Shown one piece after another: positions 4,526 through 20,642 of a stretch of 64,000 bases of DNA. The notes beneath the pieces were generated by a model. It made no database searches. It was given only the letters and a program-made list of their open reading frames with translations, and was not told the DNA's origin. Within the stretch, counting starts at the first letter, position 1; each line of letters starts with the position of its first letter. A program made the translations under genes and the position numbers. The stretch lies in the NCBI RefSeq assembly GCF_024235695.1, contig NZ_JACKLX010000012.1, one strand, 5' to 3'. Source of the stretch: Accumulibacter sp. Its GTDB lineage: Bacteria; Pseudomonadota; Gammaproteobacteria; Burkholderiales; Rhodocyclaceae.

Positions 4526-4666
4526 GAGCGACTCCGGTGAGTGGTGGCGGGGGAGGGATGGCAATACGGGAAGTGCTAGAATGACGGGCTTGATTATCAA
4601 CCATTTGCGGCCAGGTTTGTTGCTTCGGCGACGCCGGCAGCACGATCGCAATCAGCAGAGGTCAGC

Positions 4667-5395
4667 ATGGCAGGACATTCCAAATGGGCCAACATCCAGC
4701 ACCGCAAGGGCCGCCAGGATGAGAAACGCAGCGCGTCCTTTTCGAAGATCGCCAAGGAAATAACCGTTTCGGCCAAGATGGGCGGCGGCGACGCGGCGTT
4801 CAACCCGCGCCTGCGCCTGGCCATCGACAAGGCCAAGAACGTCAACATGCCCAAGGACAAGATCGACAACGCGATCAAGAAGGGCACGGGCGAACTCGAG
4901 GGCGTCGATTACGTCGAGATTCGTTATGAGGGCTACGGCATCAGTGGCGCGGCGGTGATCGTCGATTGCCTGACCGACAACAAGACCCGTACCGTCGCCG
5001 ACGTCCGGCACGCGTTCAACAAGTACGGCGGCAACCTCGGCACCGACGGCTGCGTCGCCTTTCAGTTCAGGCATTGCGGGCAATTGCTGTTCGCTCCCGG
5101 GACCGACGAAGCGGCACTGATGGATGCCGCGATCGAGGCCGGCGCCGACGACGTGTTGAGCAACGACGACGGCTCGGTGGAAGTGATCACGGCGCCGAAC
5201 GACTACATGGCGGTGAAGGAAGCGCTGGCGGCCGCCGGCTTCGCCGCCGAGTATGGCGGCGTGACGATGAAGGCCGAGAACGAGACCCAGCTCACTGGCG
5301 ACGAAGCGCAGCGGATGCAGAAACTGATCGACGCGCTCGACAGCCTCGACGACGTTCAAGAGGTGTTCACCAACGTCGTCATGGACGACGAGTGA
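4667..5395 (+). CDS. yebC: YebC/PmpR-family protein
   Basis: [47 protein letters not shown]. Confidence 0.96.
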
Positions 5396-5486
5396 GCTGC
5401 CGGAGCGGCACGCTGTGCTCTCCGGCGACCGACGGTCTGGTGCTGAGGCCGGCCGGAGATTCCTGTAGCAAGACCTGGAGAAGCAG

Positions 5487-5756
5487 ATGAAAAAAGCTGT
5501 CGGTTGTGCCCTGCTGGCACTGCTGCCCTTGCTGGCGCAGGCCGGCGACGTGCAGATCAACGTCAATAACGTCAGGATCCAGGGCGGCGGCGTCACCGTC
5601 AATGTCGGCGACCGCGACAAGCGCGGCTACTACTGGGACGGCAAGGTCTGGCGCGATCCCGATTACTGGCACAAGTACCATGGCAACGGCCAGGGCAAGA
5701 ACAAGGGCAAGGGCTATCACTGCCCGCCGGGTCAGGCCAAGAAAGGCAACTGCTGA
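5487..5756 (+). CDS. DUF2502-family (YaaX/YpeC-like) small secreted protein
   Basis: Signal peptide; GDRDKRGYYWDG..WR motif; C-terminal HCPPGQAKKGNC. Confidence 0.75.
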   Translation: MKKAVGCALLALLPLLAQAGDVQINVNNVRIQGGGVTVNVGDRDKRGYYWDGKVWRDPDYWHKYHGNGQGKNKGKGYHCPPGQAKKGNC

Positions 5757-5833
5757 GCCGCAGGTAGCCCGCGGCATGTCGATCGCCAGGCCGACGCCGC
5801 GTTCTCGGCGGCGCCGCCTTGCGCTGCCCGGCG

Positions 5834-6733
5834 CTATTCGCTCCCGGCGGCGGGTTCAGCCGACCTGCCGGCGGGCGTCGGGTCGGCGACGGTCGTGGCA
5901 CCGGGTTCTTTCAGCGGCTTGCGCCTGGCCAGCCGCGCCTTCCAGACCTCGCCGCGAAGCTCGTTGGAGCGGCTGACGATGGTGACCAGGACGCTGGCTG
6001 TCCACGCGAAGGTGAACATCCCCGATATGGCGATGATCGGCGCCAGCATGTACCACTCGTCCGTCAGCTCCCGGTGACTGCCCAGCGTGGTGTACGACAG
6101 TGCGGCGAAGCGTGCCGCTGCCGCCCATTGCGGGATGATGCCACCATAGACCAGGGCCGCTGACCAGAGAACGATCGACATCAGGTGCAGACCGAGCATC
6201 CTGAAGACGGTGGAGCCAAGCAGCAGGTCGACGCTCCACCACGCCGGATGCTGCTGGACGCGCTGCGCGCGCTTGTCGAAATGGCCGGTCAACAGGCGCA
6301 GGCCGATGGCCTGCAGAATGACGACAGCGACCAGAACGCCGCCGCCGAAGAGGAAGTCCGGCAGCGGCAGCGCTTCGATCACCGGCAACTTCGCTTCGAC
6401 GTAGGCTTCCACCGGCGCCAGTTCGCCTGGCAGTTTGGTAACCACCGCCTGGGGGATTTCGGCAAGTTCACCGGGAGCCTTCTTGATCGCCTGCGGCAGC
6501 TCCTGCACGTCCTTCGACAGCCGCTCGATCGCTTGCGGCAGCGGCTGTCGCGACGGGTCGGCGTCGTTCGGCTGCGCCGTGGGCGCCAGCGTGCTCGCGT
6601 GATCAGCCGGCTTGGCAGCGGCTTGCGAAACCGTTGGCGGCGGCGCCTTCGCCGTTTTCTCGATGCTTGTTGTCTCGGCCACCCTGGCAACTCCCCTGCT
6701 GAAACCAACGCGCCTGAACAAATTGATGAGCAT
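5834..6733 (-). CDS. Ion-channel-like (Ion_trans_2) membrane protein with low-complexity N-terminal extension
   Basis: Hydrophobic helices around a pore-loop-like FAALSYTTLG and IAISGMFTFAWTAS; start uncertain. Confidence 0.65.
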   Translation of the reverse strand: MLINLFRRVGFSRGVARVAETTSIEKTAKAPPPTVSQAAAKPADHASTLAPTAQPNDADPSRQPLPQAIERLSKDVQELPQAIKKAPGELAEIPQAVVTKLPGELAPVEAYVEAKLPVIEALPLPDFLFGGGVLVAVVILQAIGLRLLTGHFDKRAQRVQQHPAWWSVDLLLGSTVFRMLGLHLMSIVLWSAALVYGGIIPQWAAAARFAALSYTTLGSHRELTDEWYMLAPIIAISGMFTFAWTASVLVTIVSRSNELRGEVWKARLARRKPLKEPGATTVADPTPAGRSAEPAAGSE

Positions 6734-6934
6734 GGCGGCCGCGCCCTGGTTGCGTCGCCGCTTGCCTGGTAGCGGAATCTGCGCAGCGAGGGCTGGCGCC
6801 TCTCGAGACCTCTCCGCTTCCCTCTCTGTGTATGGCAAGCAGGCTGCGAGTATACTATCTGGTGCGCGGGATTGGCGTGACTTCGGGTTGCGATCCGGGA
6901 TAGCTGGTGTCAAGACAGGGAGGCATGCCGCAAG

Positions 6935-8029
6935 GTGAAAGCGACGCTGATCGATGCCCAGGGCGTGAGCATGCGCTTGTCCGGGAAGGACCTGGCGGCC
7001 CAGTTGCCCGGGGAAGGTTTCTTCTGGCTTGACGTCGTGAACGCCAGCCGGGACGAAATCTCTTCGCTGGCCTCTGCCCTGCAGCTCGACGCCGAGTTGA
7101 GTGCCTGGTTGCCCCGCTTTGGCAAGGCGGCGCGCTTCAAGGCGAGCCCGCAATACCTGTGCATGTCGGGCTGGGCGGACGCCGGAACCCACGGTGTCGT
7201 CGAAGGACATCTCCTATATTCCCGGGCGTGGCTGATCACCGTATTCGACGGCGCCGCAACGCACCTGGACGCCGCGCGCGAGCGTTTTCGTGAGCTTGCC
7301 GGGACGATTGCCGCGCATCCCGACTACGCGCCACTGCTCGTCCTCCATGAACTGGTGACCGGTTTCTACCCACGCCTGGAGCAAGCCGACGAGCTGCTCG
7401 ACAAACTGGAGGAGCAGATCTTTCTCAAGCCGGCCGCCGCGCAAATGGTGAGCCTGGCCGATCTGCGCCGGCAGCTGTCGTCGCTGCACCGGCTACTGGT
7501 GCCGTTGCGCGACAGGGTGAGCAGCGCGGCCGCATCGATTGGCGGTGTTCCCTGCATCAGCGCCGAGGTATGGCCATCGTTCCAGAGCTTCGGCGAACGC
7601 CTGGTAGACCTCGTGGAACTGATCGATGCCTACCGTCAGCGCACCGGCGAGGCCATGGAGGGCTATCGGGCGAGCCTTTCCAACCGCCAATCCGAGCAGA
7701 TCAACCGGCTGACGATCATCTCCTGGGTGTTCCTGCCGATTACCTTCCTGACCGGCTACTTTGGCATGAACTTCAACTGGGCGATCAATGAGCTTCTTGC
7801 AACGCGGGACGCTTTCCTGCTGCTCGGCATCGGACTGCCTTTGTTGTCACTCGCGCTGACGCTGCTGTTGTTCAAGAGCCTTGGCTGGGTGGGGACGTGG
7901 CGGCGAAAGAAACTGCAGTCGGCGGCGGCGGCCGGCGTGCGTGGACTCGGGGCGGTGCCCAGGGCCACAGCAGGTCATGAAGAAGGCCGACCTGGCGCAG
8001 CCGGCAGGCCAGCGGACCGCGAGGGCTAG
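6935..8029 (+). CDS. corA: CorA-family Mg2+/divalent cation transporter
   Basis: INRLTIISWVFLPITFLTGYFGMNF (GMN signature) followed by a second TM helix. Confidence 0.88.
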   Translation: MKATLIDAQGVSMRLSGKDLAAQLPGEGFFWLDVVNASRDEISSLASALQLDAELSAWLPRFGKAARFKASPQYLCMSGWADAGTHGVVEGHLLYSRAWLITVFDGAATHLDAARERFRELAGTIAAHPDYAPLLVLHELVTGFYPRLEQADELLDKLEEQIFLKPAAAQMVSLADLRRQLSSLHRLLVPLRDRVSSAAASIGGVPCISAEVWPSFQSFGERLVDLVELIDAYRQRTGEAMEGYRASLSNRQSEQINRLTIISWVFLPITFLTGYFGMNFNWAINELLATRDAFLLLGIGLPLLSLALTLLLFKSLGWVGTWRRKKLQSAAAAGVRGLGAVPRATAGHEEGRPGAAGRPADREG

Positions 8030-8054
8030 CGCGGCGCCAGCTAGCACTTGATGG

Positions 8055-9803
8055 TCAAGCGCTCGGCGCCGGGCCACCGCCCTCGGCGGTGGCCGCCGCC
8101 GCGGGTGCGCCCGACTGATTCTCGTATTCGGCCACCACGGCATGGATCGAACCGTAGATCGCCTGTTCGCCGAGGACTTCGGTGATTCCGTAGCGGTCGA
8201 ATTGCCCGCGGACTTCCGCCGACAGGTTGGCAAATACCAGCCGGATGCCCTGCGCCCTGAGCAGCGTGCAGGTGTCGCGCAGCATCGCCGCGGCCGAGAA
8301 ATCCACGTCACCGATCGCCGCCGCTTCGACGCAGAGGCAGCGCAGGGGCGGCTGCCCTCGGGTCTTCGCCAGTTCGAGGACCTCTTCGGCAAACTGCCCG
8401 GCGTTGGCGTAGTAGAGGCTGTGGCTGAAAGAATAAACGATCAGACCGGGGGCGATCTGCTGCGGCGTGCTCAGCGCTACCGTCTGCCAACCCTTCTTCC
8501 GCTTGTCCGCGGCGATCACGGTGTTGGTGCCGCGGTAGCTTCGCCGCACGTGATCGAGCAGCGACAGGATCATTGCCAGGACGATGCCCTGTTCGACGCC
8601 AACGACGACGACCGTTGCCGCGGTTACCAGGGCAACCCAGAATTCGGCGCGCGCTTCGACGAAGATCTGGCGCATGCCCTTGACGTCGATCATTTTCACC
8701 GCCACCAGGAAAACGATCGCCGACAGCACCGCAGCCGGCAAATGTGCCAGCGGCCCGGTCAGGAAGAGCAGGACCAGCAGAACGATGACGCTGGTGGTGA
8801 TCTGCGAAATCTGGCTGCGGCCACCGCCGCCGGCGACCATCGCCGTGTTGGTCGGGCTGCCATTGACGATGAAGGTTCCCGACAGGCCGGCGCCAAGGTT
8901 GGCCATGCCCAGGCCGACCATATCGACGTTCTCGTCGAAGCGGTCCTTGTACTTGGCCGCGTAGGCGCGCGAGGTCGCGGCGCTCTGCGAGAGAATGACG
9001 ACGAAGCAGGCCAGGGCGAGTGGCGCCAGCTTCCAGATCAGCGGCCAGCTCCAGTCGACCTGTGGCAGACCGAGCGTCGGCAGGCCGCTGGGCACCGCAC
9101 CCAGCGTTTCCAGGTGAGCGTCGAGACCCAGTGCCCAACTGACGGCAATGGCGCCAATGACGGCGATCAGGCCGCCGGGGATCTTTTCCGACACCTTGTT
9201 GCCGCCGAGAATCACCGCCAGCACGGCCAGCGACGTCGTCAGCGCATAGAAGTTGGTTTGACCGATCGATTGCAGGTCGTGCACGATCTGCGAAAGCGGC
9301 TGGTTGCTGATCCGCGGCAGGCCCAGCAAGCCGGACACCTCGAGCAGCGAGACCTGCACACCGACGCCGGTGAGAAAGCCGGTAAGCACCGTGCGCGAGA
9401 GAAAATCGGCGAGAAAGCCAAGCCGCAGCACGCGCGCGGCAAACATCAAGACCGCCGCCATCAGTGCCAGCAGGCTGCACAGCGCCAGCCATTCGTTGGA
9501 CCCCCGTACGGCCATGCCGGCAAGGCCGGCGGCAACCACCGCCGCCGTTGCCGAATCGGCATTGACCGAGAGATGGCGCGACGATCCGAAGATGGCGAAC
9601 AGAAACATCGGGATGAGAATGGTGTACAGGCCGGTGATCACCGGCGTGCCGATGATCTTGGTGTAGCCCATCGTTCCCGGAATCGACAGCGCGGCGAGGG
9701 TCAGGCCGGCGATGATGTCGCGCCCGATCCCCGCCCGGTCGATCGGCAGGATGCCCTGGAAGAGCGGCAGCCGGAAGCGCTTGCCCTCGCTCGCTGTCGT
9801 CAT
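8055..9803 (-). CDS. SulP/SLC26 anion permease with STAS domain
   Basis: DIIAGLTLAAL.IP..MGY, GLY, FGSSRHL, LGFLADFLS; C-terminal STAS (LYYANA, DVDFSAA). Confidence 0.92.
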   Translation of the reverse strand: MTTASEGKRFRLPLFQGILPIDRAGIGRDIIAGLTLAALSIPGTMGYTKIIGTPVITGLYTILIPMFLFAIFGSSRHLSVNADSATAAVVAAGLAGMAVRGSNEWLALCSLLALMAAVLMFAARVLRLGFLADFLSRTVLTGFLTGVGVQVSLLEVSGLLGLPRISNQPLSQIVHDLQSIGQTNFYALTTSLAVLAVILGGNKVSEKIPGGLIAVIGAIAVSWALGLDAHLETLGAVPSGLPTLGLPQVDWSWPLIWKLAPLALACFVVILSQSAATSRAYAAKYKDRFDENVDMVGLGMANLGAGLSGTFIVNGSPTNTAMVAGGGGRSQISQITTSVIVLLVLLFLTGPLAHLPAAVLSAIVFLVAVKMIDVKGMRQIFVEARAEFWVALVTAATVVVVGVEQGIVLAMILSLLDHVRRSYRGTNTVIAADKRKKGWQTVALSTPQQIAPGLIVYSFSHSLYYANAGQFAEEVLELAKTRGQPPLRCLCVEAAAIGDVDFSAAAMLRDTCTLLRAQGIRLVFANLSAEVRGQFDRYGITEVLGEQAIYGSIHAVVAEYENQSGAPAAAATAEGGGPAPSA

Positions 9804-9838
9804 CGCAGTCCTCCGTGGCTCAGCGCCAGCGGCATGCT

Positions 9839-10693
9839 CTAGCCCTTGCCGTTCTGCTTCTCCTGCGCGGCGGCTGCCGCATGATACTTGCGGCGGACTT
9901 CTTCAAGGTCGACCCGCGTCGGCGGCAACTTGAGCTTCATGTCCTCCATCGTCTCGGCGATGATCTGCGAAGCGGCAAGGTTGCGGAACCACTTGTGATT
10001 CGCCGGGATGACGTACCACGGCGCGTGTGCCGTGCTGGTCTTCTCGAGGGCGTCTTCGTAGGCCTCGGTGTACTTCGGCCACAATTCGCGTTCCGAGTAG
10101 TCCGACTCGCTGATCTTCCAGTTGCGTGCGGGGTCGTCGAGGCGCTGCTTGAAGCGCTCGAGTTGTTCTTCGGGGCTGATGTGCAGGAAGAACTTGAGAA
10201 TCCGCGTGCCGTTCTGCGTCAGCAGCTTCTCGAAGTCGTTGATCAGGTCGAAGCGTTTCGACCACACCGCTTTCGGGACCAGTTCGTGCACCCGCACGAC
10301 CAGCACGTCCTCGTAGTACGAACGATTGAAGACGACCACCTCACCCTTGGCCGGCGTGCGCTGGTGCGCGCGCCAGAGGAAATCGTGCGCCGCTTCGCTG
10401 GCGCTCGGCTGCTTGAAGCCGAACACCGACGTTCCCTGCGGGTTCATGCCGCTGAACAGGTGACGCACGACGCCATCCTTGCCGGCGGCGTCGAGCGCCT
10501 GCAGCACGACCAGAAGCGACTGGTCGGCGTTGGCGTAAAGCAGCGCCTGTAATTCGGCCATGCGCGTGACGTACTTGCTGATCTCGGGTTGCGCTGCCTC
10601 GTTCGAGAGGTGCCCGCCGCTTTGCGAAGGGTCGATCGCGGCCAGCTTGAGCTTCTTGCCGGGGCTGACGGCGAATTGTTTGCGAAAGTCCAT
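9839..10693 (-). CDS. ppk2: Polyphosphate kinase 2 (PPK2), class III-like
   Basis: Walker A DAAGKDG, HDFLWR, FNRSYYEDVLVVRVH, KFFLHIS, RNWK, APWYVIPANHKWFRN. Confidence 0.93.
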   Translation of the reverse strand: MDFRKQFAVSPGKKLKLAAIDPSQSGGHLSNEAAQPEISKYVTRMAELQALLYANADQSLLVVLQALDAAGKDGVVRHLFSGMNPQGTSVFGFKQPSASEAAHDFLWRAHQRTPAKGEVVVFNRSYYEDVLVVRVHELVPKAVWSKRFDLINDFEKLLTQNGTRILKFFLHISPEEQLERFKQRLDDPARNWKISESDYSERELWPKYTEAYEDALEKTSTAHAPWYVIPANHKWFRNLAASQIIAETMEDMKLKLPPTRVDLEEVRRKYHAAAAAQEKQNGKG

Positions 10694-10717
10694 GATTCGT
10701 TTCTCCTTTGCTCGAGA

Positions 10718-13330
10718 TCAGCGGTTCGCCGCCGCGGCCGGTGAGGGCGTGGCCAGGTGTGCGTGCAGCGACTGATTGACCGTTTCCACGCTCTTCTGGT
10801 GGCGCGCCGTGCGGTAGCTGGCGAAGCGGTCGTAGATCATCCGGACGGCGCCGAGGATCAACAGCCAGATCGCCAGGTAGAGCCAGACCCAGCCGATCAG
10901 CGTCCAGGGGATCGCCGGTACCAGCAGGCCAAAGCCGCACATCAGTGCCGCGGCGAGCTGCGTGCCGACGATCGCCCAGAACAGCGGTGCAGCCGGCAAC
11001 GGTCGCTGGAAGAACCAGCGCTCGGTGCGGGTGACGAACAGCAGCAGCTGGCCACCACCGACCAGTTGCACGAACATCATCGTCTGCAGCTGGGCGTGCG
11101 TCGCCAGCCCGAAGTAGTCCTGCAGATGCGGCTCCGACAGCACCTTGACGCCGAACAGCAGCAGGCCGAAGGACTCGGCGACCGAGAAGATGCCGAGAAC
11201 GGTCGCCAGGCCGAAGATCTGTGGCAGTTGCCAGCGCACCGGCCGCGGACTGACCGGCGTGTTGTCGTAGGCGATCGTCATCATCGGGAGGTCGTCGAGC
11301 AGCGACATGACGACGATCATGATCGCGGTCAGCGGCGAGAAACCGAGGAAGATCGACGACAGGACGACGACGAACATGATGTCGATGGTCAGGGCGATAC
11401 GATAGATCAGGTAGCTATTGATGCGACCGAAGATCCGCCGTGCTTCGTCGATGGCGCCGTTGATCACCGACAGGCCGGGGGCGGTGAGGATCAGCGCCGC
11501 AGCGCCGCGGGCGGCATCGGTGGCGCCGGATACGGCCGTACCGCAATCGGCCTGTTTCAGGGCCGGCGCGTCATTGACGCCGTCGCCGGTCATCGCCACC
11601 AGGTGGCCCCGCGACTGCAGCGCCTTGACGATGGCGTACTTGTGCTCGGGGAAGACGCGCGCGAAGCCGTTCGCCCGCTCGATCGAGTCGATGATCGCCG
11701 GCGGCACATTGTCGGGATCCATGTCCTTGGGGAAGGCCTCCGCCGCCGGAATGATGTGCGTGCCCATGCCCAGCTGGCGCGCCGTCTCGATGGCAATGGC
11801 GGTGTCGTCGCCGGTGATCATCATCACCCGCACACCTTTTTCCGCCGCCTTGTCGATCGTCTCCTTGGAGTCGTCGCGTGGCGGGTCGAACATCGGCAGG
11901 ATGCCGAGGAACGACCAGCTGGCGCCGTCATCGGCCGAACGCGCCACGCCCAGTGCCCGTGCACCCTGCGCGGCCAGCTTGTCCACCGCCTCCTTGACCT
12001 TGTCGGCGACATCGGCGGGTGCCCTGGCAAGATCGACGATCGCCTGCGGCGCGCCCTTGGCGACGACGAAGGACTTGCCGCTGGCGTCGGTGACCGACGC
12101 TTGCGTGCGCTTGGTGACCGGGTCGAAGGGAACGAACCTGGTCATCGTCCAGCTCTTGAGCAGCGTCTGGTCCTTGAGCGCGGTGATTACCGCGGTATCG
12201 ATGGCATCCTTGTCCTCGAGCTTGGACGCCAGCGCCGCCGCCAGGATGCAGTCCTGCGGGTCGCTGGCGGCGAACAGCATCGGCTCGCTGAGGCTCAGCT
12301 GATTCTTGGTCAGCGTGCCGGTCTTGTCCGAGCAGAGGATATCGACGCCGGCCATCTCCTCGATCGCCGACAGCTTGGAAACGATTGCCTGCTGTTTCGA
12401 CAGTGCCAGTGCGCCGAGCGCCATGGTGATCGAGAATACCGCCGGCATCGCCACCGGGATCGACGCCACCATCAGCACCAGCACGAACTGCAGGATGCCA
12501 AGTGCATCGTGCAGGCCCCAGTCCTTGGCGATCACGATGTCGTGGTAGACCTTGACGGCAACCAGGATCAGCGTCAGCAGGACAGCCACGACGATCAGGA
12601 AGTTGCTGATCTGGAACATCGCCTTCTGGGCATGGCTGACCGAACCGGCGCCGGCGACCAGTTTGGCGGTACGACCGAAGAAGGTGTTGGTACCAGTGGC
12701 GATGACCACCGCCTCCATCTCGCCCTGCTTGACGACGCTTCCCGAGTAAGCCTCGTCGCCGACCTTCTTCCTGGCCGGCAGCGACTCGCCGGTGAGCGCC
12801 GCCTGGTCGATCGAAGCGAAGTCGCCAGCGGTCAGGCGCAGGTCGGCCGGGACGATCACGCCGAGGCGAATCTTGACCATGTCGCCGGGAACCAGCGTCG
12901 CCGCCTGCACCGTACTCCACTGGCCGTCGCGCAGGACGGTGGCTTCCGGTGCCAGGCCGGCCTTCAGCGCGGCCAGCGCGTTCGACGCCTTGCGGTCCTG
13001 CCAGAATTCGAGCGCCGCATTGAACAGCAGCAGCGAGCCGATGATGACGAAATCGTCCCAGTGGCCGAGCAGCGCCGAAACCAGCGCCGCCGCCTCGATG
13101 ACGTAGGCCATCGAGCCGGTGAAATAGCCAAGAATCTGCTCGCCGAGGCTTTTTTCCTTGGTAACGATGGCGTTCGGTCCGTAGCGGCTCAGTCGCTGCT
13201 GCGCTTCGGCGGAACTCAGGCCCTGATCGGCCTTGACGGCGAGGGTCGACAGGACCTCCTCGACCGGCACCTTCTCGAGATCGGGGCCGTCAGCGGCGGC
13301 CGGAGTGGCTTGCTCGGTTACATTGGCCAT
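10718..13330 (-). CDS. P-type ATPase, P3A plasma-membrane H+-ATPase type
   Basis: TGES, CSDKTGTLT, KGAP, DPPR, TGDGVNDAPAL; P3A-type M4 IPVAMP, M5 YRIA, M6 LLDD..MTIAYD. Confidence 0.9.
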   Translation of the reverse strand: MANVTEQATPAAADGPDLEKVPVEEVLSTLAVKADQGLSSAEAQQRLSRYGPNAIVTKEKSLGEQILGYFTGSMAYVIEAAALVSALLGHWDDFVIIGSLLLFNAALEFWQDRKASNALAALKAGLAPEATVLRDGQWSTVQAATLVPGDMVKIRLGVIVPADLRLTAGDFASIDQAALTGESLPARKKVGDEAYSGSVVKQGEMEAVVIATGTNTFFGRTAKLVAGAGSVSHAQKAMFQISNFLIVVAVLLTLILVAVKVYHDIVIAKDWGLHDALGILQFVLVLMVASIPVAMPAVFSITMALGALALSKQQAIVSKLSAIEEMAGVDILCSDKTGTLTKNQLSLSEPMLFAASDPQDCILAAALASKLEDKDAIDTAVITALKDQTLLKSWTMTRFVPFDPVTKRTQASVTDASGKSFVVAKGAPQAIVDLARAPADVADKVKEAVDKLAAQGARALGVARSADDGASWSFLGILPMFDPPRDDSKETIDKAAEKGVRVMMITGDDTAIAIETARQLGMGTHIIPAAEAFPKDMDPDNVPPAIIDSIERANGFARVFPEHKYAIVKALQSRGHLVAMTGDGVNDAPALKQADCGTAVSGATDAARGAAALILTAPGLSVINGAIDEARRIFGRINSYLIYRIALTIDIMFVVVLSSIFLGFSPLTAIMIVVMSLLDDLPMMTIAYDNTPVSPRPVRWQLPQIFGLATVLGIFSVAESFGLLLFGVKVLSEPHLQDYFGLATHAQLQTMMFVQLVGGGQLLLFVTRTERWFFQRPLPAAPLFWAIVGTQLAAALMCGFGLLVPAIPWTLIGWVWLYLAIWLLILGAVRMIYDRFASYRTARHQKSVETVNQSLHAHLATPSPAAAANR

Positions 13331-13440
13331 CGTCGTCTCCACAGGAAAGGCTGCTCAACAAAAAACGGGAATTGTCACAAGCTTCGGTGGTTGCCGGACG
13401 ATCGCGCGCCGCCTGCCGCCAGCCCTTTCGCCGCGTTGTT

Positions 13441-13938
13441 TCAGCCGGTTGCCGGCGCGGCGTCGAGCACCGCCTGCAGCGTCGCTTCCGCTTCATGCGA
13501 CAGGGTCGTATCGAGGATCTTGCCGCCGGTACCCCGCAGCGCGATCAGCACCTTGTCGGGCTCGGCATGGCGCACCAGCACGAAGAGCAGCGAGCTGCCG
13601 TCCTGGAAGGTCGAGGCGAGGTCCTTCAGGAAATCCTCGTCGACGCCAGCGCTCGCCAGCGCCCCGCGGATCGCCCCGCCGCGCGCGTCGGTGGCCATGC
13701 CCAGAACCGGATTCATGACGATCGCCCCGACCAGCGTGTGCCAGAAGCCCCGGCGCGGGGTGAGCTCCACTGCCGGCTTGTAGCTGTGCAGCAGGCTTAT
13801 TTCGCCCTGTTCGTCCTTGACCGCGACGAGCGCCTCCTCGATGTCGATGAGGTGGTCCTGCTGCAGCTTGCGCAGCGTCATGCGGACCTCTTCCGCCCGG
13901 AATTGATCATCGTAGGCAATTACCACCAGCTTGCTCAT
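13441..13938 (-). CDS. DUF1269-family membrane protein (paralogue 2, diverged)
   Basis: MSKLVVIAYDD...GFW.TLVG...GSSLLFVLVR.AEPDKVL..L.GTGGKIL.TTLS; clearly similar to 14291-14794. Confidence 0.8.
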   Translation of the reverse strand: MSKLVVIAYDDQFRAEEVRMTLRKLQQDHLIDIEEALVAVKDEQGEISLLHSYKPAVELTPRRGFWHTLVGAIVMNPVLGMATDARGGAIRGALASAGVDEDFLKDLASTFQDGSSLLFVLVRHAEPDKVLIALRGTGGKILDTTLSHEAEATLQAVLDAAPATG

Positions 13939-14101
13939 GAAACGCTCTCCTTGCTTGATTGAGTCACACAGTAACCGGGTGACTGGAGCCGATGCTCCGA
14001 TACGATGGCGACCGCGTGCCAACCGGGTAGTCGCTTGTTTTTCCTTGCCCTGGCGCCGACCCGCCGGATTCATCTCATGCTGCGACTGGCAGCCGGCAGG
14101 C

Positions 14102-14233
14102 TCAGTCCTTGTCTTCCTCGAAAGGGATCCGGGCGTCGCCCTCGAAACGCGCCTTGCGTTTGCGCCCGAATACCCATATCACGATCGCCACGAAGGCGGC
14201 GATCAGCAACCAGTGATAGATGCTCAATTCCAT
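14102..14233 (-). CDS. ccoQ: CcoQ/FixQ-like small membrane peptide (43 aa)
   Basis: Below the ORF-track cutoff; hand translation MELSIYHWLLIAAFVAIVIWVFGRKRKARFEGDARIPFEEDKD*; one TM helix then the K.RF...A.IPF.E tail typical of CcoQ; GAGG upstream. Confidence 0.75.
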   Translation of the reverse strand: MELSIYHWLLIAAFVAIVIWVFGRKRKARFEGDARIPFEEDKD

Positions 14234-14290
14234 GCGCGTTGACCTCGTCGGGTGACCGCCGACCGCCGGCGGTCACCGCAGTGCTTTCCC

Positions 14291-14794
14291 TCAGCCGGCA
14301 GCCGGCGCCTTGGCGGCGTCGAGCACCGCCTGCAGCTTCTCTTCCTCGTCGTGCGTCAGCGAAGTCTTGATCACCTTGCCGCCGGTGCCCTGCAACTCGG
14401 CCAGCACCTTGTCGGGCGTCGCCTTGCGCACCAGCACGAACAGCACCGAGCTGCCGTTCTTGAACGACGCGGCGAGATTCTTCATGAAGTCGTCGTTGAT
14501 ACCGACGTCGGTCAAGGCGCCGCTGACCGCGCCGGCGCTGGCGCCGACCGCCATGCCGAGCAGCGGGCTCATGAAGATCAGGCCGATCAGCGTTCCCCAG
14601 AAACCGCCGCTCAAGGCGCCCGCGGCAGCGAGCCTGTACATCTGGTGCAGCTTGACCTTGCCCTTTTCGTCCTTGACCGCGACCACCGCGTCCTCGAGGT
14701 CGATCAGGTAATCCTGCTGCATCTTGCGCAGCATGGTGCGGACCTCCTCGGCCTTGAAAGGGTCGTCGTAGGCGATTACTACCAGGTTGCTCAT
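14291..14794 (-). CDS. DUF1269-family membrane protein (paralogue 1)
   Basis: MSNLVVIAYDD...GALSGGFWGTLIGLIF..PLLGMAVGASAGAVSGALTDVGINDDF; AGGAG RBS. Confidence 0.88.
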   Translation of the reverse strand: MSNLVVIAYDDPFKAEEVRTMLRKMQQDYLIDLEDAVVAVKDEKGKVKLHQMYRLAAAGALSGGFWGTLIGLIFMSPLLGMAVGASAGAVSGALTDVGINDDFMKNLAASFKNGSSVLFVLVRKATPDKVLAELQGTGGKVIKTSLTHDEEEKLQAVLDAAKAPAAG

Positions 14795-14877
14795 CAAGAA
14801 CTCTCCTATGGTTTGCTGAACTGACGGTGATTGGCGTGGCGCCGGCCGGTCACCGGTCACGGCGCCCTTGCCGCGAC

Positions 14878-15225
14878 TTACATCTTCTTCTCGACCTTGT
14901 GCATGTCGGCCTTCGCTTCCGCCTTGACCTTGGCCATGGCGGCTTTCAGTTTCTGCCAGAAACTGGCCTGCGGATCCTTCACGCATTCCTCGCCAACGAT
15001 CGGGATGATCTTCTCGGTGCCTTCGATGTCGATCATCGACGCTTCCGGCTTGCCGCCCTTGGCATAGGCCGTCGCGGCGTACATCACCTGCGGTTTGAAC
15101 TGGTCGTCTACGGCGACGAAGTCGGCACACGTCCACTTGGCCACCGGCTTCTTGCTGTCGGCGGCGACGGCGGTAGTGGCGGCAGCGACGATGATCAACG
15201 ACACAGCGACCTGCTTGAGCTTCAT
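14878..15225 (-). CDS. hdeA: Acid-activated periplasmic chaperone HdeA
   Basis: Signal peptide; KKPV.KWTC.DF..VDDQFKP, KPE....D.EG.EK..P....C.KDPQASFWQK with the two conserved Cys. Confidence 0.85.
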   Translation of the reverse strand: MKLKQVAVSLIIVAAATTAVAADSKKPVAKWTCADFVAVDDQFKPQVMYAATAYAKGGKPEASMIDIEGTEKIIPIVGEECVKDPQASFWQKLKAAMAKVKAEAKADMHKVEKKM

Positions 15226-15560
15226 GATGGTTTCTCCTGGTTTTAATGACGGAGCTGCGGCGGCTCGGGATGGCGGCGCCGAATGGTGTCGACATGATAA
15301 GCCCTGGCGCGGCGCAGGGTGTCCGCCGCACGGATTTTACACCGTGCCAATGTCCTGCCGTCAAGCGAGCCAATGCTCGGCAGGCTGGCGGCAGGAAGCG
15401 CTGAGCGTCATTGCCGACCGGCACGGCAAAGGCACAACGAGCCCGATCAGCCCATGGACTTGCGGTTGGCATTTGCCTCGAGCGGACGACAGGCGGCCCG
15501 AAAGTGCTATATTTTGTTCTATGAAAAGGCCATCTACCACACCACGACGGGACGGCGCGC

Positions 15561-16118
15561 ATGAGAACTGTTCATTACCTTCTGCTGGGGGTTTTCGTCG
15601 CGGCGACCGCCGCGGCGCAACCGGTCTACGAAACGCGCGACAAGGACGGCCCGGTCTTTTCCGACCTGCCGAGCCAGGGCAGGGACCTGCCGAGCCCTGG
15701 GGCGACCGAGCTGACGCTGCCGCCACTCAACGTCGGCGACGCGTTGCCGGCGCCGGCGCCGGTTCCGGAGCAGGAAGCGCCGGCAGCAGTGGCCATGCCC
15801 TACCGGTCGCTGAGCGTCAGCCAGCCGGCGAGCGGTGGCACGATCCATTCCAACACCGGCCAGTTCCCCGTCGAGATCACCATCGACCCGGCGCTGCGCA
15901 CCAGGCAGGGCGATGTCATCGTCGTCAAGCTCGACGACCAGGAACTGCCTGCCAGACGCACGACGACCAAGTTCGACATCACGGCCGACGATTGGCAGAT
16001 GGCGGCGGTGGATAGCGTCGAGCACCAACTGCAGGTCGCCGTGCTCGACCTCGCCGGCAAGCTGCTGATCGTTTCTCAACCAGTGCGCTTCTTCGTCCAT
16101 CGCGCGAGCCGCCGCTGA
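15561..16118 (+). CDS. DUF4124-domain secreted protein
   Basis: Signal peptide then VYETRDKDGPVFSDLP; Y.SLS.SQP..GGTIHSN.G domain. Confidence 0.7.
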   Translation: MRTVHYLLLGVFVAATAAAQPVYETRDKDGPVFSDLPSQGRDLPSPGATELTLPPLNVGDALPAPAPVPEQEAPAAVAMPYRSLSVSQPASGGTIHSNTGQFPVEITIDPALRTRQGDVIVVKLDDQELPARRTTTKFDITADDWQMAAVDSVEHQLQVAVLDLAGKLLIVSQPVRFFVHRASRR

Positions 16119-16426
16119 TCCCGGGCATCGCGCACCGCCGACGGTGGTGAGCCGTCGGCGGTGCCGGCAGGGCTGCTGGCCTCGACGACGACCGGGATCG
16201 CCGGGATGATCGATGGCTGGGCCGTATCGCCGTGCCGCCGCGACACGATCCTGACGCGCGTCGTCGTGCCGGTCCGCGGAAAGCCATCGAATGCCGCCAC
16301 GTAATATGCCAAAGGGGTCCTGTTCGCGGGTTATACTCGCGCTCCTTGCAATCCTCGCGGCGCGATGGCCGGCGGCGTTTTCCCGATCGCCGTTGGCGCG
16401 ACCGGCGGGAACTTCCGGAGATCAGG

Positions 16427-17068
16427 ATGGACCAGGGTTTTCTGCAACCCCTCGCAGCGGCGCTGAACGCCGGCAGCCTGGTCGAGTTTTCGGCTACCAC
16501 GCTGACCAGTTTCGCCCTGATCGCCGCCGCCGAAATCGGCGACAAGAGCCAGCTGGTCTGCATGACCTTGGCTTCCCGGCACCGGCCGATGCCGGTGATG
16601 CTCGGTGCGCTGGCCGCCTTTGCCGTGCTGAACACCCTGGCTGTGGTCTTTGGCGTGGCGATCGCCAGCTGGTTGCCCGCGTATGTCGTCGGCGCGATCG
16701 TCGCCATCCTGTTCGCGATCTTCGGCGTGCATGCGCTGCGCGCCAGCGACGACGACGACGATGATGAGGTCGACGAGAAAAGCGGCCACGGCATCTTCTT
16801 CACCACCTTCGTCTTGCTGACCGTTGCCGAATTCGGCGACAAGACGCAACTCGCCGTCGTCGCCTTGAGCAGCACGCACGCGGCGGCGGCCGTCTGGGTC
16901 GGCGCGACAATCGCTCTCGCGGCGACCTCGGCGCTGGGAATCCTCGCCGGTCGCACCGTCCTGCAGAGGATTCCGCTGGTGTTGCTGCACCGGCTCAGCG
17001 GCGCCTTCTTCCTGCTGCTGGCAGCAGTCGCCGCCTGGCAGGCCTACGCCGCCTACCGCGCGGCGTAG
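16427..17068 (+). CDS. TMEM165/GDT1 (UPF0016) Mn2+/Ca2+:H+ exchanger
   Basis: Two EXGDK(S/T)Q motifs (AEIGDKSQL, AEFGDKTQL) and an acidic central loop. Confidence 0.92.
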   Translation: MDQGFLQPLAAALNAGSLVEFSATTLTSFALIAAAEIGDKSQLVCMTLASRHRPMPVMLGALAAFAVLNTLAVVFGVAIASWLPAYVVGAIVAILFAIFGVHALRASDDDDDDEVDEKSGHGIFFTTFVLLTVAEFGDKTQLAVVALSSTHAAAAVWVGATIALAATSALGILAGRTVLQRIPLVLLHRLSGAFFLLLAAVAAWQAYAAYRAA

Positions 17069-17073: not shown

Positions 17074-18399
17074 TCAGAACAGCAGGCGGGCCAGCAGCAA
17101 GCCGGTGGTGACCGCGGTCACGGTGGCTACCAGCCCCGGGATCATGAACGAGTGGTTCAACACGTACTTGCCGATTCTCGTCGTTCCCGACAGGTCGAAG
17201 TTGATTGCGGCGATCAGCGAACCATAGGTCGGGACGAAGAAGTAGCCGTTCACCGACGGGAACATCGCGATCAGGAACTGCGGCGGAATGCCGAGGACGA
17301 TTCCCAGTGGCATCAAGGCCCGCGTCGTCGCAGCCTGGCTGTAGAGCAGTACCGACGCGAAGAACAGGCCGAAGGCAAAGGTCCACGGCGCCACCTCGGC
17401 GAGGTGGCCGATCGCCGGAACGATCACCTCCTTGTTCGCGGCGATGAAGCTGTCACCCAGCCACGCCAGGCCGAAAATGCCGATCACCGCGACCACTCCG
17501 GCGCGCAGGGTTGCGGTCTTCGGCACTTCATCGACGTTCACCCGGGTCAGCATCAGCATGATCGCCGCGACCGCCATCATCACCACCTCGATGACGATCG
17601 GCATGCCGATGGCGCTCTTGGCGCCGGGCAGTTGTCGCAGTTCCGGGAAAAAGCCGAGCAGCACGACCAGCGCGACGCCGCTCAGGAAGAGGTACGCCGA
17701 CAGCTTGGCGGCGGGCTTCAGCGGTGGCCGATCGGCGGCCGCCTGCGGTGCCGGGATCTCGCCCGCCAGCAGCCGTGCCTGGTACTCGGGATCGTCCTTC
17801 AGATCCTTGCCGAGAAACATCGAGACGACGGCGGCGACGATGACGCCGGTCAGGGTGGCGGGAACGCAGACCATCAGAATCTGCGGCAGTCCCCACTGCG
17901 TCAGGCCCTTCTCGGCAAACAGGCCGATCATCGCCGCCGTCGCGGCAGCCACCGGACTGGCCGTGATCGCCTGCTGCGAGGCAATGGTCGCGATCGCCAT
18001 CGGCCGTTCGGGACGAATGCCACTGCGGTGCGCAGTCTCGTAGATCACCGGCAGCAAGGGGTAGACGATGTGGCCGGTGCCGGCGACGAAAGTGAAACAC
18101 CAGGTCGTCAAGGGCGCGACGATGGTGACGTACCTGGGGTTGGCACGGATGATACGTTCGGCGATGCGGACCAGGAAGTCGATGCCACCGGCCGCGTCCA
18201 TCACCGACGCGGCCATGATCACCGCCAGGATGATCAGCATCACGTCGATCGGCGGCGACGTTGGCGTGACGCCGAAGCCGATGATCAGCACCAGGAGTCC
18301 GACCGCTCCCCACAGGCCCAGGCCGACGCCGCTGTAGCGCGCGCCCATCCAGATCGCCGCCAGCACGACGACGAATTGCAGAAAGATAGCCAGTGTCAC
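17074..18399 (-). CDS. Anaerobic C4-dicarboxylate transporter, DcuA/DcuB family
   Basis: GTGHIVY.LLPVI, IRPERPMA..TIASQ.AITASP, GYFF.PTY, D.SGTTRIGKYVLNHSFM.PG; GTG start. Confidence 0.93.
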   Translation of the reverse strand: MTLAIFLQFVVVLAAIWMGARYSGVGLGLWGAVGLLVLIIGFGVTPTSPPIDVMLIILAVIMAASVMDAAGGIDFLVRIAERIIRANPRYVTIVAPLTTWCFTFVAGTGHIVYPLLPVIYETAHRSGIRPERPMAIATIASQQAITASPVAAATAAMIGLFAEKGLTQWGLPQILMVCVPATLTGVIVAAVVSMFLGKDLKDDPEYQARLLAGEIPAPQAAADRPPLKPAAKLSAYLFLSGVALVVLLGFFPELRQLPGAKSAIGMPIVIEVVMMAVAAIMLMLTRVNVDEVPKTATLRAGVVAVIGIFGLAWLGDSFIAANKEVIVPAIGHLAEVAPWTFAFGLFFASVLLYSQAATTRALMPLGIVLGIPPQFLIAMFPSVNGYFFVPTYGSLIAAINFDLSGTTRIGKYVLNHSFMIPGLVATVTAVTTGLLLARLLF

Positions 18400-18450
18400 G
18401 AAAGTCCCTCCCGGTGGCGACCGGAGTTCAAAGCCCGGTCTGGCTGACGA

Positions 18451-18479
18451 CGGTCAACTCGAGCCCCCCGAGTTGACCG
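18451..18479. other. Perfect 11-bp stem-loop between aspA and dcu
   Basis: CGGTCAACTCG-agccccc-CGAGTTGACCG; no U-tract, so possibly an mRNA stabiliser or processing site. Confidence 0.6.
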
Positions 18480-18492
18480 CAGCTGTGGACGC

Positions 18493-19893
18493 TTACTTGT
18501 CGAAATTGCCCTTGATCAGGTTGTCGAACGAGAAAAGCTCGTCCCATCTCTCCTGGCTCAGCAGCTTGCGTTCGTCGACGACGATCTGCTGCAGCGACTT
18601 GCCGGTCTCGTAGCCTTCGCGCGCGACTTCCGCACACTGCTTGTAGCCCAGCGACGGCTTGAGCAGGGTAACGATTCCCAGCGAGTTGAGGACCATGTCG
18701 CGCGAGTGCTCGGCGTTGGCGGTAATGCCCCGAACGCAGTTGACGCGCAGGCTGTTGACCGCGTGCTCCATCGTGAAGATCGACGTGAACAGGGCGAAGG
18801 TGATCACCGGCTCCATGACGTTCAGCTGCAGCTGGCCGGCCGATGCGGCCAGCGTCACGGTCAGGTCGAGGCCGATGACCAGGAAGCTGGTCTGGTTGAC
18901 GACCTCGGGAATCACCGGGTTGACCTTGCCCGGCATGATCGACGAGCCCGGCTGCATCTGTGGCAGGTTGATCTCGTTCAGCCCGCAGCGCGGACCCGAA
19001 GCGAGCAGGCGGATGTCGTTGCAGATCTTGGTCAGTTTCGCCGCGGTGCGCTTGAGAACGCCCGACAGCTGCACGTAGGCGCCGGTGTCGGAGGTTGCCT
19101 CGACCAGGTCGCCGGCGAGGATCAGCTTGATTCCGGTCAGATCCGAAAGGCAGCGCGTCACCAGTTCGGGATATCCCCGCGCGGCGGTCACCGAGGTGCC
19201 GATCGCCGTCGCCCCGAGATTGACCTCGTGCAGCAGCTGGCGCACGTCGGCGAGACGGTGCACCTCCTCGCCGATGGTCGTTCCCCAACCGTGGAACTCC
19301 TGCCCGAGCGACATCGGCACGGCGTCCTGGAGATGCGTGCGGCCCATCTTGAGGACGCCCTCGAACTCCTTGCCCTTGGCGTGAAAGGCATCCTCCAGGC
19401 GCCGCAGCGCGTCGGTGTAGCTGGTCAGCCGGAGGATCAGCGCCAGCCGGAAAGCGGTCGGATAGACGTCATTGGTCGACTGTCCGCAGTTGACGTGGTC
19501 GTTGGGGTTGACCAACTGGTATTCGCCCTTGTTGTGGCCGAGCGATTCGAGGGCGAGATTGGCAATCACCTCGTTGGCATTCATGTTGGTCGACGTGCCG
19601 GCGCCGCCCTGGATGAAGTCGGTGACGAACTGGTCGTCCATATCGCCGGCGATCAGGCGGTCGCAAGCGCCGATGATGGCGTCGGCAATCCGCGCGTCGA
19701 GCACGCCGAGATTGCGGTTGGTCAGCGCGGCGGCTTTCTTGACGTAGCCGAAGGCCTTGACGAAGAACGGCTCGGCCGACATCGGGATGCCGGTGATGTG
19801 GAAATTCTGCAGGCCGCGCAGCGTTTGCACGCCGTAGTACGCGTCGTCGGGCAATTCCTTCTCGCCCAGAAAGTCTTTCTCGATTCGTGCCAT
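18493..19893 (-). CDS. aspA: Aspartate ammonia-lyase
   Basis: YYGVQTLR, QGGAGTSTNMNANEVIAN, GRTHLQDAVP, GSSIMPGKVNPVIPE, GQLQLNVMEPVI. Confidence 0.95.
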   Translation of the reverse strand: MARIEKDFLGEKELPDDAYYGVQTLRGLQNFHITGIPMSAEPFFVKAFGYVKKAAALTNRNLGVLDARIADAIIGACDRLIAGDMDDQFVTDFIQGGAGTSTNMNANEVIANLALESLGHNKGEYQLVNPNDHVNCGQSTNDVYPTAFRLALILRLTSYTDALRRLEDAFHAKGKEFEGVLKMGRTHLQDAVPMSLGQEFHGWGTTIGEEVHRLADVRQLLHEVNLGATAIGTSVTAARGYPELVTRCLSDLTGIKLILAGDLVEATSDTGAYVQLSGVLKRTAAKLTKICNDIRLLASGPRCGLNEINLPQMQPGSSIMPGKVNPVIPEVVNQTSFLVIGLDLTVTLAASAGQLQLNVMEPVITFALFTSIFTMEHAVNSLRVNCVRGITANAEHSRDMVLNSLGIVTLLKPSLGYKQCAEVAREGYETGKSLQQIVVDERKLLSQERWDELFSFDNLIKGNFDK

Positions 19894-20241
19894 CGCGTTT
19901 CCTTTCGCTTGCGTGAGGGGCGGGCGGCTGCCACAACCGACCGGCAGCCGTAGTGCAGAAAAACGTTCTTCCGGTTGACGTTTGCCGGCGGCCGCTCTCG
20001 CCGCATCCGGTGCTGTCCGGCGCCACGTCCTGGCGGGCGCCGCCGCTGGCCGCGCGTCACCGTGGCCTTGATTCTAGTCGATAGTTCCTGCGGTCATGAA
20101 AGTTTGCCAGCCAGGCGATCGAGGCGAGGCCGCTGGTCGGTTTCAGCGCGACGGGGAGCGCTCGCCGGGCGCTGGCTCGGACCTCCCGTCGATTTCGGAG
20201 TCGCTTGACGCCGAGGGTTTTCCGCCCCGATCGCCTGCTCG

Positions 20242-20605
20242 TTAGCGAAACGGGTTGCTGATGACGAGCCGCTGGTCGATGACCAGTTCGTGCTGCATGT
20301 CTTCGGACCAGAGGATCGCGGTATCCGCGAGCAAGGCCGAACCAACGATCATCGCATCGAAGACCGCCAGCCGATACCGCTCGGCAATCTCCAGACCCAA
20401 ATGCATGCGACTCTTCAGTCAGCGGGTAGACACGCAGGACCTCCCGGATGGTCTGCAGTACCTCGCCAGGCGACATCGCGAGCTTTCGCCAGGCAAGCGA
20501 TGCCAATTCGTTGACTACCTGGACGCTGATTGAGCCTCCGGAGCGAATGATCTCCTCGGCTCGCTGTGCCTTCTCCTGGGCGGCTGAAAGCAAGTACAAC
20601 AAACG
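20242..20605 (-). pseudogene. vapC: PIN-domain (VapC-like) toxin, 3' part, frameshifted
   Basis: LLYLLS...KA..A...ISVQVVNE.....RKL then frameshift near 20400 to GLEIAERYRLAVFDAMIVGSAL.....LWSEDMQH..VID.RL.I.NPF*. Confidence 0.8.
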
Positions 20606-20642
20606 GATCAGATCGTGGCTGGGCACGATCTATACTTATTCG

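What the first reader, a model, noticed from the sequence alone, without database searches (positions are those of the whole stretch)
8055..15225. Candidate polyphosphate-fuelled proton-export / acid-resistance operon: hdeA - DUF1269 - ccoQ-like - DUF1269 - P3A H+-ATPase - ppk2 - sulP
Seen: seven co-oriented minus-strand genes; ATPase to ppk2 gap 24 bp, ppk2 to sulP gap 35 bp. The ATPase keeps P3A features (M4 PVAMP, M5 Arg in YRIA, M6 Asp in LLDD). Established: HdeA is an acid-activated periplasmic chaperone; P3A ATPases export H+ and are best known from fungi and plants; class III PPK2 regenerates ATP from AMP/ADP using polyP. Inference: polyP-derived ATP drives an H+ pump, SulP balances charge and HdeA protects the periplasm. 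That would be a respiration-independent pH/proton-motive-force module, different from decarboxylase (Gad/Adi) systems and notable if the host accumulates polyP. I do not know of a described system with this composition.
Basis: partly seen in the sequence, partly recalled or inferred. Interest (0 to 1): 0.8.

Follow-up and report, generated by a model that had tools for sequence, protein, structure and literature searches.

The report
Proton pump with polyphosphate kinase partner
A phosphate-storing wastewater bacterium carries a plant/fungal-type proton-pump gene next to a polyphosphate-to-ATP enzyme and an anion transporter, a trio that recurs in unrelated bacteria and likely uses stored polyphosphate to push acid out of the cell, while the four upstream genes are local add-ons.

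Summary
All seven genes are real, intact and under purifying selection; the host is Ca. Accumulibacter. The seven-gene set is not a conserved system. The core is pump + class III PPK2 + anion permease. Among the 80 closest pump loci, ppk2 lies within 1.5 kb in 59, SulP within 3 kb in 23 and an unrelated IT-family permease in 16, never both. HdeA is near 4, DUF1269 near 8. Class III PPK2 was recruited from three lineages. The pump is a true P3A (Asp680, Asn104, fungal-position Arg644) with extra membrane carboxylates. The linked SulPs lack the proton-coupling Glu and TM10 Arg, fitting an anion shunt. Against tight coupling: 15 of 24 genus genomes with this ppk2 lack an intact pump (5 keep remnants), and the host also has GadB, F1Fo and an H+-PPase. 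Best reading (about 50%): a polyP-backed pH-stat exporting H+ with a counter-anion. Main rival: an anoxic membrane-energising cassette like lxa. Acid induction, pumping and polyP coupling are untested. This scan already noted pump + PPK2 pairings on other DNA; the interchangeable anion permease is what is new here.

The parts
15334..15364 (-). Candidate sigma-70 promoter: -35-like hexamer 15364-15359, 19-bp spacer, -10-like hexamer 15339-15334
   Evidence: Read from sequence. The -10 hexamer aligns with TAGAAT in two genus relatives; the -35 is not conserved. Not reported by the consensus scan, which allows 16-18 bp spacers only. Inferred.
14878..15225 (-). hdeA, periplasmic acid-stress chaperone homologue (115 aa, both Cys kept); accessory gene
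   Evidence: NF007576 101 vs cut-off 85; E. coli HdeA 1bg8, E 8e-18; near the pump in 4 of 80 loci
14291..14794 (-). DUF1269 copy a (167 aa, glycine-zipper protein); accessory
   Evidence: PF06897 134 bits; dN/dS 0.06-0.15
14102..14233 (-). Orphan CcoQ/FixQ-like 43-aa peptide with one predicted helix; accessory
   Evidence: PF05545 29.6 vs 29; a second FixQ match lies on contig C17; helix 3-33 in a single-sequence model; homologues in 19 of 40 genus genomes against 10 with the pump
13441..13938 (-). DUF1269 copy b (165 aa, 59% identical to copy a, glycine zipper partly eroded); accessory
   Evidence: PF06897 93 bits; dN/dS 0.26-0.38
10718..13330 (-). P3A H+-ATPase (870 aa): D335 phosphorylation site, N104, R644, D680, plus subfamily acids E108, D650, D679; core gene
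   Evidence: TIGR01647 929 vs 615.5; best PDB hits AHA2 and Pma1; tree; residue tallies
9839..10693 (-). Class III PPK2 (284 aa, NRSYYE signature); the only TIGR03709 match found in this 84%-complete genome; core gene
   Evidence: TIGR03709 382 vs 247; PDB 5lc9, E 2e-82
8055..9803 (-). SulP/SLC26 anion permease with STAS (582 aa); Q273 at the AtSULTR4;1 E347 site, N319 at R393; interchangeable third core gene
   Evidence: PF00916 + PF01740; alignment to 7lhv

Best explanation
The pump, class III PPK2 and SulP genes form a conserved three-gene core that likely works as a polyphosphate-backed pH-stat: PPK2 would regenerate ATP from ADP or AMP using stored polyP, the P3A ATPase would spend it to export H+, and the anion permease would let a counter-anion leave so that charge does not stall the pump. 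Shown: gene identities, catalytic residues, linkage across phyla, mutual exclusion of SulP and the IT permease. Inferred: H+ as substrate, direction of the PPK2 reaction, the anion (phosphate, bicarbonate or a carboxylate), and an acid trigger. In this Accumulibacter lineage hdeA, two DUF1269 genes and a CcoQ-like peptide have been added upstream, probably under one promoter, giving a periplasmic acid-protection layer. The coupling is metabolic and optional: ppk2-sulP survive loss of the pump.
For: P3A membership and intact transport residues: N104, R644 and D680 in 79 of 79 aligned clade members. ppk2 within 1.5 kb in 59 of 80 loci, 50 of 71 outside Accumulibacter, over Alpha-, Beta- and Gammaproteobacteria, Actinomycetota and Myxococcota; chance for one gene in a 4-Mb genome is about 0.0008. 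All 66 pump-adjacent PPK2s, the window's included, carry the class III signature and fall in three deep lineages; Mycobacterium and Paraburkholderia pumps of this clade sit beside different lineages. SulP 23 and IT permease 16 of 80, both together 0, each at several separate places on the tree; a further SLC13-TrkA-C permease in 2 loci. All 22 alignable linked SulPs have Gln at the H+-coupling Glu and no Arg at TM10 (one Lys), while three other SulPs of this genome keep the Arg. In AtSULTR4;1, E347Q removes most pH-gradient dependence and only channel-like SLC26A9 lacks the positive charge (PMC8298490 passages). HdeA recurs beside the pump in two non-Accumulibacter lineages, and HdeD-family DUF308 genes flank a 59%-identical pump on a plasmid. 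Eukaryotic P3A pumps act as pH-stats (PMC10654040 section 9).
Against: 15 of 24 genus genomes with this ppk2 type have no intact pump; 11 of the 15 keep sulP and 5 keep pump remnants. 24 of 80 loci have ppk2 but neither permease, 17 of them with enough flank; 8 informative loci have none of ppk2, SulP or the 410-aa permease. In a 401-genome phylum draw, more distant pumps had ppk2 within 3 kb in only 8 of 26 loci and SulP, IT permease or hdeA in 0. The host has GadB, two atpD-like genes and an H+-PPase. Activated sludge is near neutral (own knowledge), while HdeA acts at very low pH (recalled). The transport function of prokaryotic P3A pumps is undetermined. Kin are not independent, so counts overstate.
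Confidence: 0.5

Rival explanations
1. Anoxic energisation cassette: polyP-derived ATP drives the pump to keep a proton-motive force when respiration stops (for survival or acetate uptake), as proposed for low-oxygen loci such as lxa; the trigger would be lack of oxygen, not acid.
For: PhaC-like genes lie near the pump in 8 non-Accumulibacter loci, and pta/ack-type genes in a few. lxa holds a cation ATPase, a sulfate transporter, PHA, pta and ack genes and is needed for anoxic survival (PMC3721108 passages). Accumulibacter needs PMF for anaerobic acetate uptake (PMC12604563 passages). An orphan CcoQ-like gene points to micro-oxic physiology.
Against: No FNR/Anr-type box with 0 or 1 mismatch in 7800-15700. 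PMF for acetate uptake is ascribed to Pit and F1Fo, and 30 of 40 genus genomes showed no pump. An uncoupled anion permease would drain the electrical gradient. 'polyphosphate' does not occur in the lxa main text.
Confidence: 0.25
2. Loose stress island: the genes share a promoter and travel together but are not mechanistically coupled; PPK2 would mainly salvage AMP and the pump is a dispensable passenger.
For: Repeated pump deletion with ppk2-sulP kept, including one genome where ppk2 follows the divergent upstream gene directly. The region upstream of the pump is variable: sulfatase, HAD hydrolase, PPIase, RND efflux. HdeA travels with sulfatase, MarC, DUF1254 and DUF1269 rather than with the pump.
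Against: Recruitment of three PPK2 lineages, always class III, and of non-homologous permeases into the same slot is hard to get by hitch-hiking. P3A and PPK2 distances correlate (Spearman 0.52, 55 pairs; shared descent alone can give this).
Confidence: 0.17
3. The pump has shifted specificity: the extra membrane carboxylates (E108, D650, D679) would bind Na+, K+ or a divalent cation, making this an ion-balance module for polyP turnover rather than an acid pump.
For: Acidic residue at 108 in 79 of 79, D679 in 71 of 79, D650 in 61 of 79, where the commonest prokaryotic type has Arg at 650 and Asn at 679. CorA, a GDT1 antiporter and a channel-like gene flank the operon.
Against: The M4 motif has no Glu; R644 is invariant at the fungal site; D650 and D679 vary; position 650 varies widely among other P3A pumps; the protein groups inside P3A, apart from Mg and Ca pumps.
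Confidence: 0.08

Closest known systems
P3A plasma-membrane H+-ATPases (Arabidopsis AHA2, yeast and Neurospora Pma1; TIGR01647)
   Same: Family score over cut-off; phosphorylation site, M2 Asn, M4 IPVAMP, M6 Asp and the fungal-position M5 Arg are kept.
   Different: No long regulatory tail; a distinct bacterial clade with extra acids in M2, M5 and M6; encoded with PPK2 and an anion permease; transport of prokaryotic P3A undetermined.
Low-oxygen-activated (lxa) locus of Burkholderia cenocepacia (PMC3721108, passages read)
   Same: Accessory cluster with a cation P-type ATPase, a sulfate-transporter gene and storage-polymer energy genes for survival without respiration.
   Different: lxa has 50 genes, six USPs and an Anr-like motif; no PPK2 or HdeA is named in its main text; here 3-7 genes and no FNR-like box. 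I did not test whether the lxa ATPase is a P3A.
Class III PPK2 (PDB 5lc9, 6an9, 6aqe; TIGR03709)
   Same: Closest solved relatives, with the NRS[HY]YE signature. AMP and ADP phosphorylation by class III is recalled.
   Different: Present in 27 of 40 genus genomes, so it is patchy, unlike the core ppk2 discussed for Accumulibacter in PMC11361876 and PMC11131965 (passages; orthology to that gene not tested).
Enteric acid-fitness island (hdeAB-hdeD, Gad system; recalled)
   Same: HdeA orthologue; the host has GadB.
   Different: gadB is on another contig without hdeA or a nearby antiporter in my rough gene calls; glutaminase not found (genome 84% complete); acid export here would be ATP-driven.

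Membership tests
P3A H+-ATPase | Score above TIGR01647 cut-off and below other P-type equivalogs | tested here: met
   929 vs 615.5; Mg 329 vs 611; Ca 352 vs 798
P3A H+-ATPase | M6 Asp proton acceptor and M2 Asn | tested here: met
   D680 = AHA2 D684 / Pma1 D730; N104; 79 of 79 aligned
P3A H+-ATPase | M5 Arg built-in counter-ion (plant R655 or fungal R695 position) | tested here: met
   R644 at the fungal position, 79 of 79; plant position is D650 (both positions described)
P3A H+-ATPase | Groups with P3A, apart from P3B and P2 | tested here: met
   44-row IQ-TREE quick tree: P3A side SH-aLRT 100, no bootstrap
P3A H+-ATPase | ATP-driven H+ export | not testable with these tools
   Needs reconstitution
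P3B Mg2+-ATPase | Score above TIGR01524 cut-off; MgtA-type M5 | tested here: not met
   329 vs 611; M5 differs from 8uy7
Class III PPK2 | Single domain, TIGR03709 over cut-off, Glu signature after Walker B | tested here: met
   382 vs 247; NRSYYE; the meaning of the signature is recalled
Class III PPK2 | PolyP-dependent AMP and ADP phosphorylation | not testable with these tools
   Needs enzyme assay
H+-coupled SULTR-type sulfate symporter | TM8 Glu (E347) and TM10 Arg (R393) | tested here: not met
   Q273 and N319; same pattern in 22 of 22 linked SulPs, one with Lys
SulP/SLC26 family | Sulfate_transp domain plus STAS | tested here: met
HdeA | NF007576 over cut-off, conserved Cys pair, N-terminal hydrophobic leader | tested here: met
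   leader judged by eye
lxa-type low-oxygen locus | Anr/FNR-like motif and universal stress proteins | tested here: not met
   No TTGAT-N4-ATCAA site with at most 1 mismatch in 7800-15700; none of the seven genes is a USP
lxa-type low-oxygen locus | Induction by low oxygen | not testable with these tools
   Only assembled contigs of RNA runs were on hand
   All partner types in 2 of 80 loci, both Accumulibacter

The most novel reading that the evidence does not exclude
A widespread, undescribed bacterial module, built on a distinct acid-rich P3A clade, turns polyphosphate directly into exported acid: class III PPK2 feeds ATP to the pump and an uncoupled SulP or IT permease exports the released phosphate as counter-anion. 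In Accumulibacter this would be a Pit-independent route of anaerobic phosphate and proton release, and the first defined physiological role for a bacterial P3A pump.
Probability: 0.2. Interest if true: 0.8.

Novelty: new variant of a known kind. Interest (0 to 1): 0.52.

Why it matters
A 2023 review states that prokaryotic P3A pumps are mainly archaeal and that their transport function is undetermined (PMC10654040 section 9). Here a bacterial P3A clade comes with conserved partners that name a fuel (polyP) and a charge shunt (anion permease), which gives a direct three-component experiment. In Accumulibacter, the main phosphorus-removing organism of wastewater plants, the pump is found in 10 of 40 genomes, so it could underlie strain differences in pH tolerance or anaerobic phosphate release. 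The value is limited by the pump being dispensable in most of the genus and by the absence of any functional data.

Tried and rejected
RNA silent-stretch control: at 98% likeness the bin 15349-15535 upstream of hdeA had depth 0 in X1, X2 and X9 and 1.7 in X4, and contigs of X1 and X2 (one study) both end at 15319, about 15 nt below the candidate -10. X4 and X8 end elsewhere (15280, 15264), no certain DNA run was laid, and contigs cannot show starts or levels, so this is not used as evidence. Depth differences along the operon are not used either.

SulP-pump fusion as a Rosetta stone: two Chromatiaceae loci (L034, L065) have SulP and pump in one frame, but they are sister rows, keep a ribosome-binding site and ATG at the pump start and have unrelated linkers; read as one probable stop-codon loss, weak support only. 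No PPK2-pump fusion was seen among 18 long or fused proteins scanned; no dedicated search for one was run.

CcoQ-like peptide as pump regulator: it follows the IT permease in one outside locus (L084), but occurs in 19 of 40 genus genomes against 10 with the pump; not supported. The single-sequence fold gave one helix only.

FNR box and consensus promoter/terminator scans: nothing above chance for the operon.

De novo clustering of all ORFs in the 80 loci was swamped by shadow frames and replaced by codon-model gene calls, which are rough and missed genes in a few loci; the counts come from tblastn.

Literature: 'proton-efflux P-type ATPase' + 'polyphosphate kinase' gave 0 papers; searches listed none whose title or abstract start describes this linkage. 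The library lacks most subscription journals. PMC4796919 and PMC7760498 passages were not relevant. Word look-ups in earlier findings returned nothing, nor did the genome look-up.
Full report
Observation. The seven minus-strand genes are present and intact at the stated coordinates, with gaps of 83, 57, 163, 110, 24 and 35 bp. HdeA, both DUF1269, the FixQ-like peptide, the P3A ATPase, class III PPK2 and SulP-STAS reach curated family cut-offs in NCBIfam or Pfam; SulP stays under the TIGR00815 cut-off. All show dN/dS of 0.05-0.38 against genus orthologues. GC content matches the flanks. The closest named relatives of the pump (88-93%) are all titled Accumulibacter and same-genus genomes hold matches at 88-93%, so the host is taken as Ca. 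Accumulibacter, a polyphosphate accumulator. The assembly is 84% complete.

The pump. It scores 929 on TIGR01647 (cut-off 615.5) and far below the Mg and Ca models. Its best solved relatives are AHA2 and Pma1, and it groups inside P3A in a 44-row tree. Alignment puts D680 on the proton acceptor, and R644 on fungal R695, while the plant R655 position is D650. In the 80 closest loci N104, R644 and D680 are invariant (79 of 79 aligned); position 108 is always acidic, D679 occurs in 71 and D650 in 61. The commonest type among 150 more distant representatives has Arg at 650 and Asn at 679, but 650 varies widely. So this is a distinct bacterial clade (78 rows, FastTree support 100; rows under 700 aa left out) that keeps the H+ machinery and adds carboxylates. 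Palmgren's review says the transport function of prokaryotic P3A is undetermined (PMC10654040, passages and section 9 read). A bioleaching metagenome paper only presumes proton export for such genes (PMC4717592 passages).

What is conserved. ppk2 lies within 1.5 kb of the pump in 59 of 80 (50 of 71 outside the genus; 50 of the 62 loci with at least 1.5 kb on both sides). SulP lies within 3 kb in 23 and a 410-aa CitMHS/ArsB-like IT permease in 16, never both; two Competibacteraceae loci have a further SLC13-TrkA-C permease. Both states occur at several separate places on the tree (12 changes). All 66 adjacent PPK2s, the window's included, carry the class III signature and belong to three deep lineages; Mycobacterium and Paraburkholderia pumps of this clade sit beside other lineages than the rest, which points to repeated recruitment. 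By contrast hdeA is within 8 kb in 4 of 80, DUF1269 in 8 and the CcoQ-like gene in 5 (2, 2 and 1 outside the genus); all partner types occur together in 2 of 80, both Accumulibacter, with a sulfatase-HAD-PPIase type insert before the pump. In the reverse search a P3A lay beside 1 of 78 HdeA loci, while sulfatase (7), DUF1269, MarC and DUF1254 (5 each) were commoner; only 30 of these loci reach 5 kb. In an even draw of 401 genomes of the phylum, 24 had a match; of the 26 outside loci, all fetched, 8 had ppk2 within 3 kb (4 of them beside pumps under the family cut-off) and none had SulP, the IT permease or hdeA. The tight three-gene form is therefore a property of this clade. Kin are not independent, so these counts overstate support.

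Results against tight coupling. In the genus 10 of 40 genomes have the pump, two of them split by frameshifts, and 27 of 40 a class III PPK2. Of 24 with the window-type ppk2, 15 have no intact pump; 11 of the 15 keep sulP and 5 keep pump remnants just upstream, one as a clean internal deletion. The pump has thus been lost repeatedly while ppk2-sulP stayed. The host also has GadB, two atpD-like genes over cut-off and an H+-PPase, and published work ascribes the anaerobic PMF of Accumulibacter to Pit and, less, F1Fo (PMC12604563 passages).

The permease. Aligned to AtSULTR4;1, the SulP has Gln at the proton-coupling Glu347 and Asn at Arg393. All 22 alignable pump-linked SulPs, of two subtypes, have that Gln and lack the Arg (one has Lys); three other SulPs of this genome keep the Arg. 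In AtSULTR4;1, E347Q largely removes pH-gradient dependence, and channel-like SLC26A9 is the only eukaryotic homologue without the positive charge (PMC8298490 passages). This fits an uncoupled anion path, but the substrate is unknown; the top PDB hit being a phosphate transporter is too close to the next hits to count.

Expression. Contigs from RNA libraries bridge all six junctions with at least 31 letters on each side: one 2,712-nt contig of X1 runs from hdeA into the pump; pump-ppk2 is bridged in X1 and X9; ppk2-sulP in X1, X3 and X8 (7 of 19 listed runs laid, from 4 studies, one labelled probably DNA). A contig across two genes shows no single transcript and DNA may be present, so this is compatible with co-transcription, not proof. 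A -10-like hexamer at 15339-15334 is conserved in two relatives.

Mechanism. Most likely (0.5) a pH-stat: polyP to ATP by PPK2 (class III activity recalled), ATP to exported H+ by the pump, charge balanced by the permease, with HdeA as a local periplasmic addition. An anion shunt suits bulk acid removal better than voltage building, and acid-stress genes recur near these pumps (HdeA in three lineages; DUF308 genes beside a plasmid pump). Rivals: anoxic energisation like lxa (0.25; PMC3721108 passages; PhaC near 8 outside loci; no FNR-like box), an uncoupled stress island (0.17), a different cation (0.08). DUF1269 is described only as a glycine zipper in a ferredoxin-like fold (bioRxiv 2024.07.07.602159 passages); its role is open.

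Novelty. Each part is a known family. Ten library searches showed no description of a P3A-PPK2-anion permease unit, within a library that lacks most subscription papers. Earlier notes of this scan report pump + PPK2 in other cassettes on other DNA; they are unchecked AI notes and led me to the lxa paper. New here: the interchangeable permease slot, the residue pattern of pump and SulP, and the loss pattern in Accumulibacter. Verdict: real, a new variant of a known kind, interest 0.52.

Noticed in passing
L132 (G000 contig C28) 5801-16569 against window 23-9378: A second copy of the herA-like, yebC, channel-like gene and sulP neighbourhood, 82-86% identical to the window but 99.4% identical over 5 kb to genome G014. 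Either a contig of a sister species in this bin or a recent transfer.
   Followed up: partly
window 17074-19893 (-): aspA followed by a Dcu carrier, 2 kb upstream of the operon; aspartate deamination could add to acid tolerance (recalled). Linked to the pump in only 1 of 80 loci.
   Followed up: partly
window 5834-8029 and 16394-17068: Flanking ion-transport genes: CorA, a GDT1 cation/H+ antiporter, and a 271-aa membrane protein with a channel-pore-like motif but no family hit.
   Followed up: partly
L034:2957-7174 and L065:3969-8291: SulP-STAS and P3A pump in one open frame of 1405 and 1440 aa in two Chromatiaceae loci; internal start signals are kept.
   Followed up: yes
L034:1422-1847 and L046:5980-6537: LysM-HdeA fusion proteins beside the pump module, both over the HdeA cut-off: a possibly wall-anchored acid chaperone.
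   Followed up: no
L117, L120, L121, L122: A divergent P3-like family of about 790 aa, under the TIGR01647 cut-off, with Lys-rich M5 instead of the Arg motif, followed by class III ppk2 in 4 of 4 such loci.
   Followed up: no
genus genomes: The orphan CcoQ-like peptide is conserved (69-88%) in 18 of 39 other genus genomes, often near this region even without the pump; partner unknown.
   Followed up: partly
window 20057-22600: Low-GC patch (about 55%) with an FMN-binding protein and what looks like an integrase fragment, between aspA and the Rubisco-cbbQ cluster.
   Followed up: no
window 25256-27541 (-): Rubisco large subunit with cbbQ; looks like form II (recalled from sequence style).
   Followed up: no
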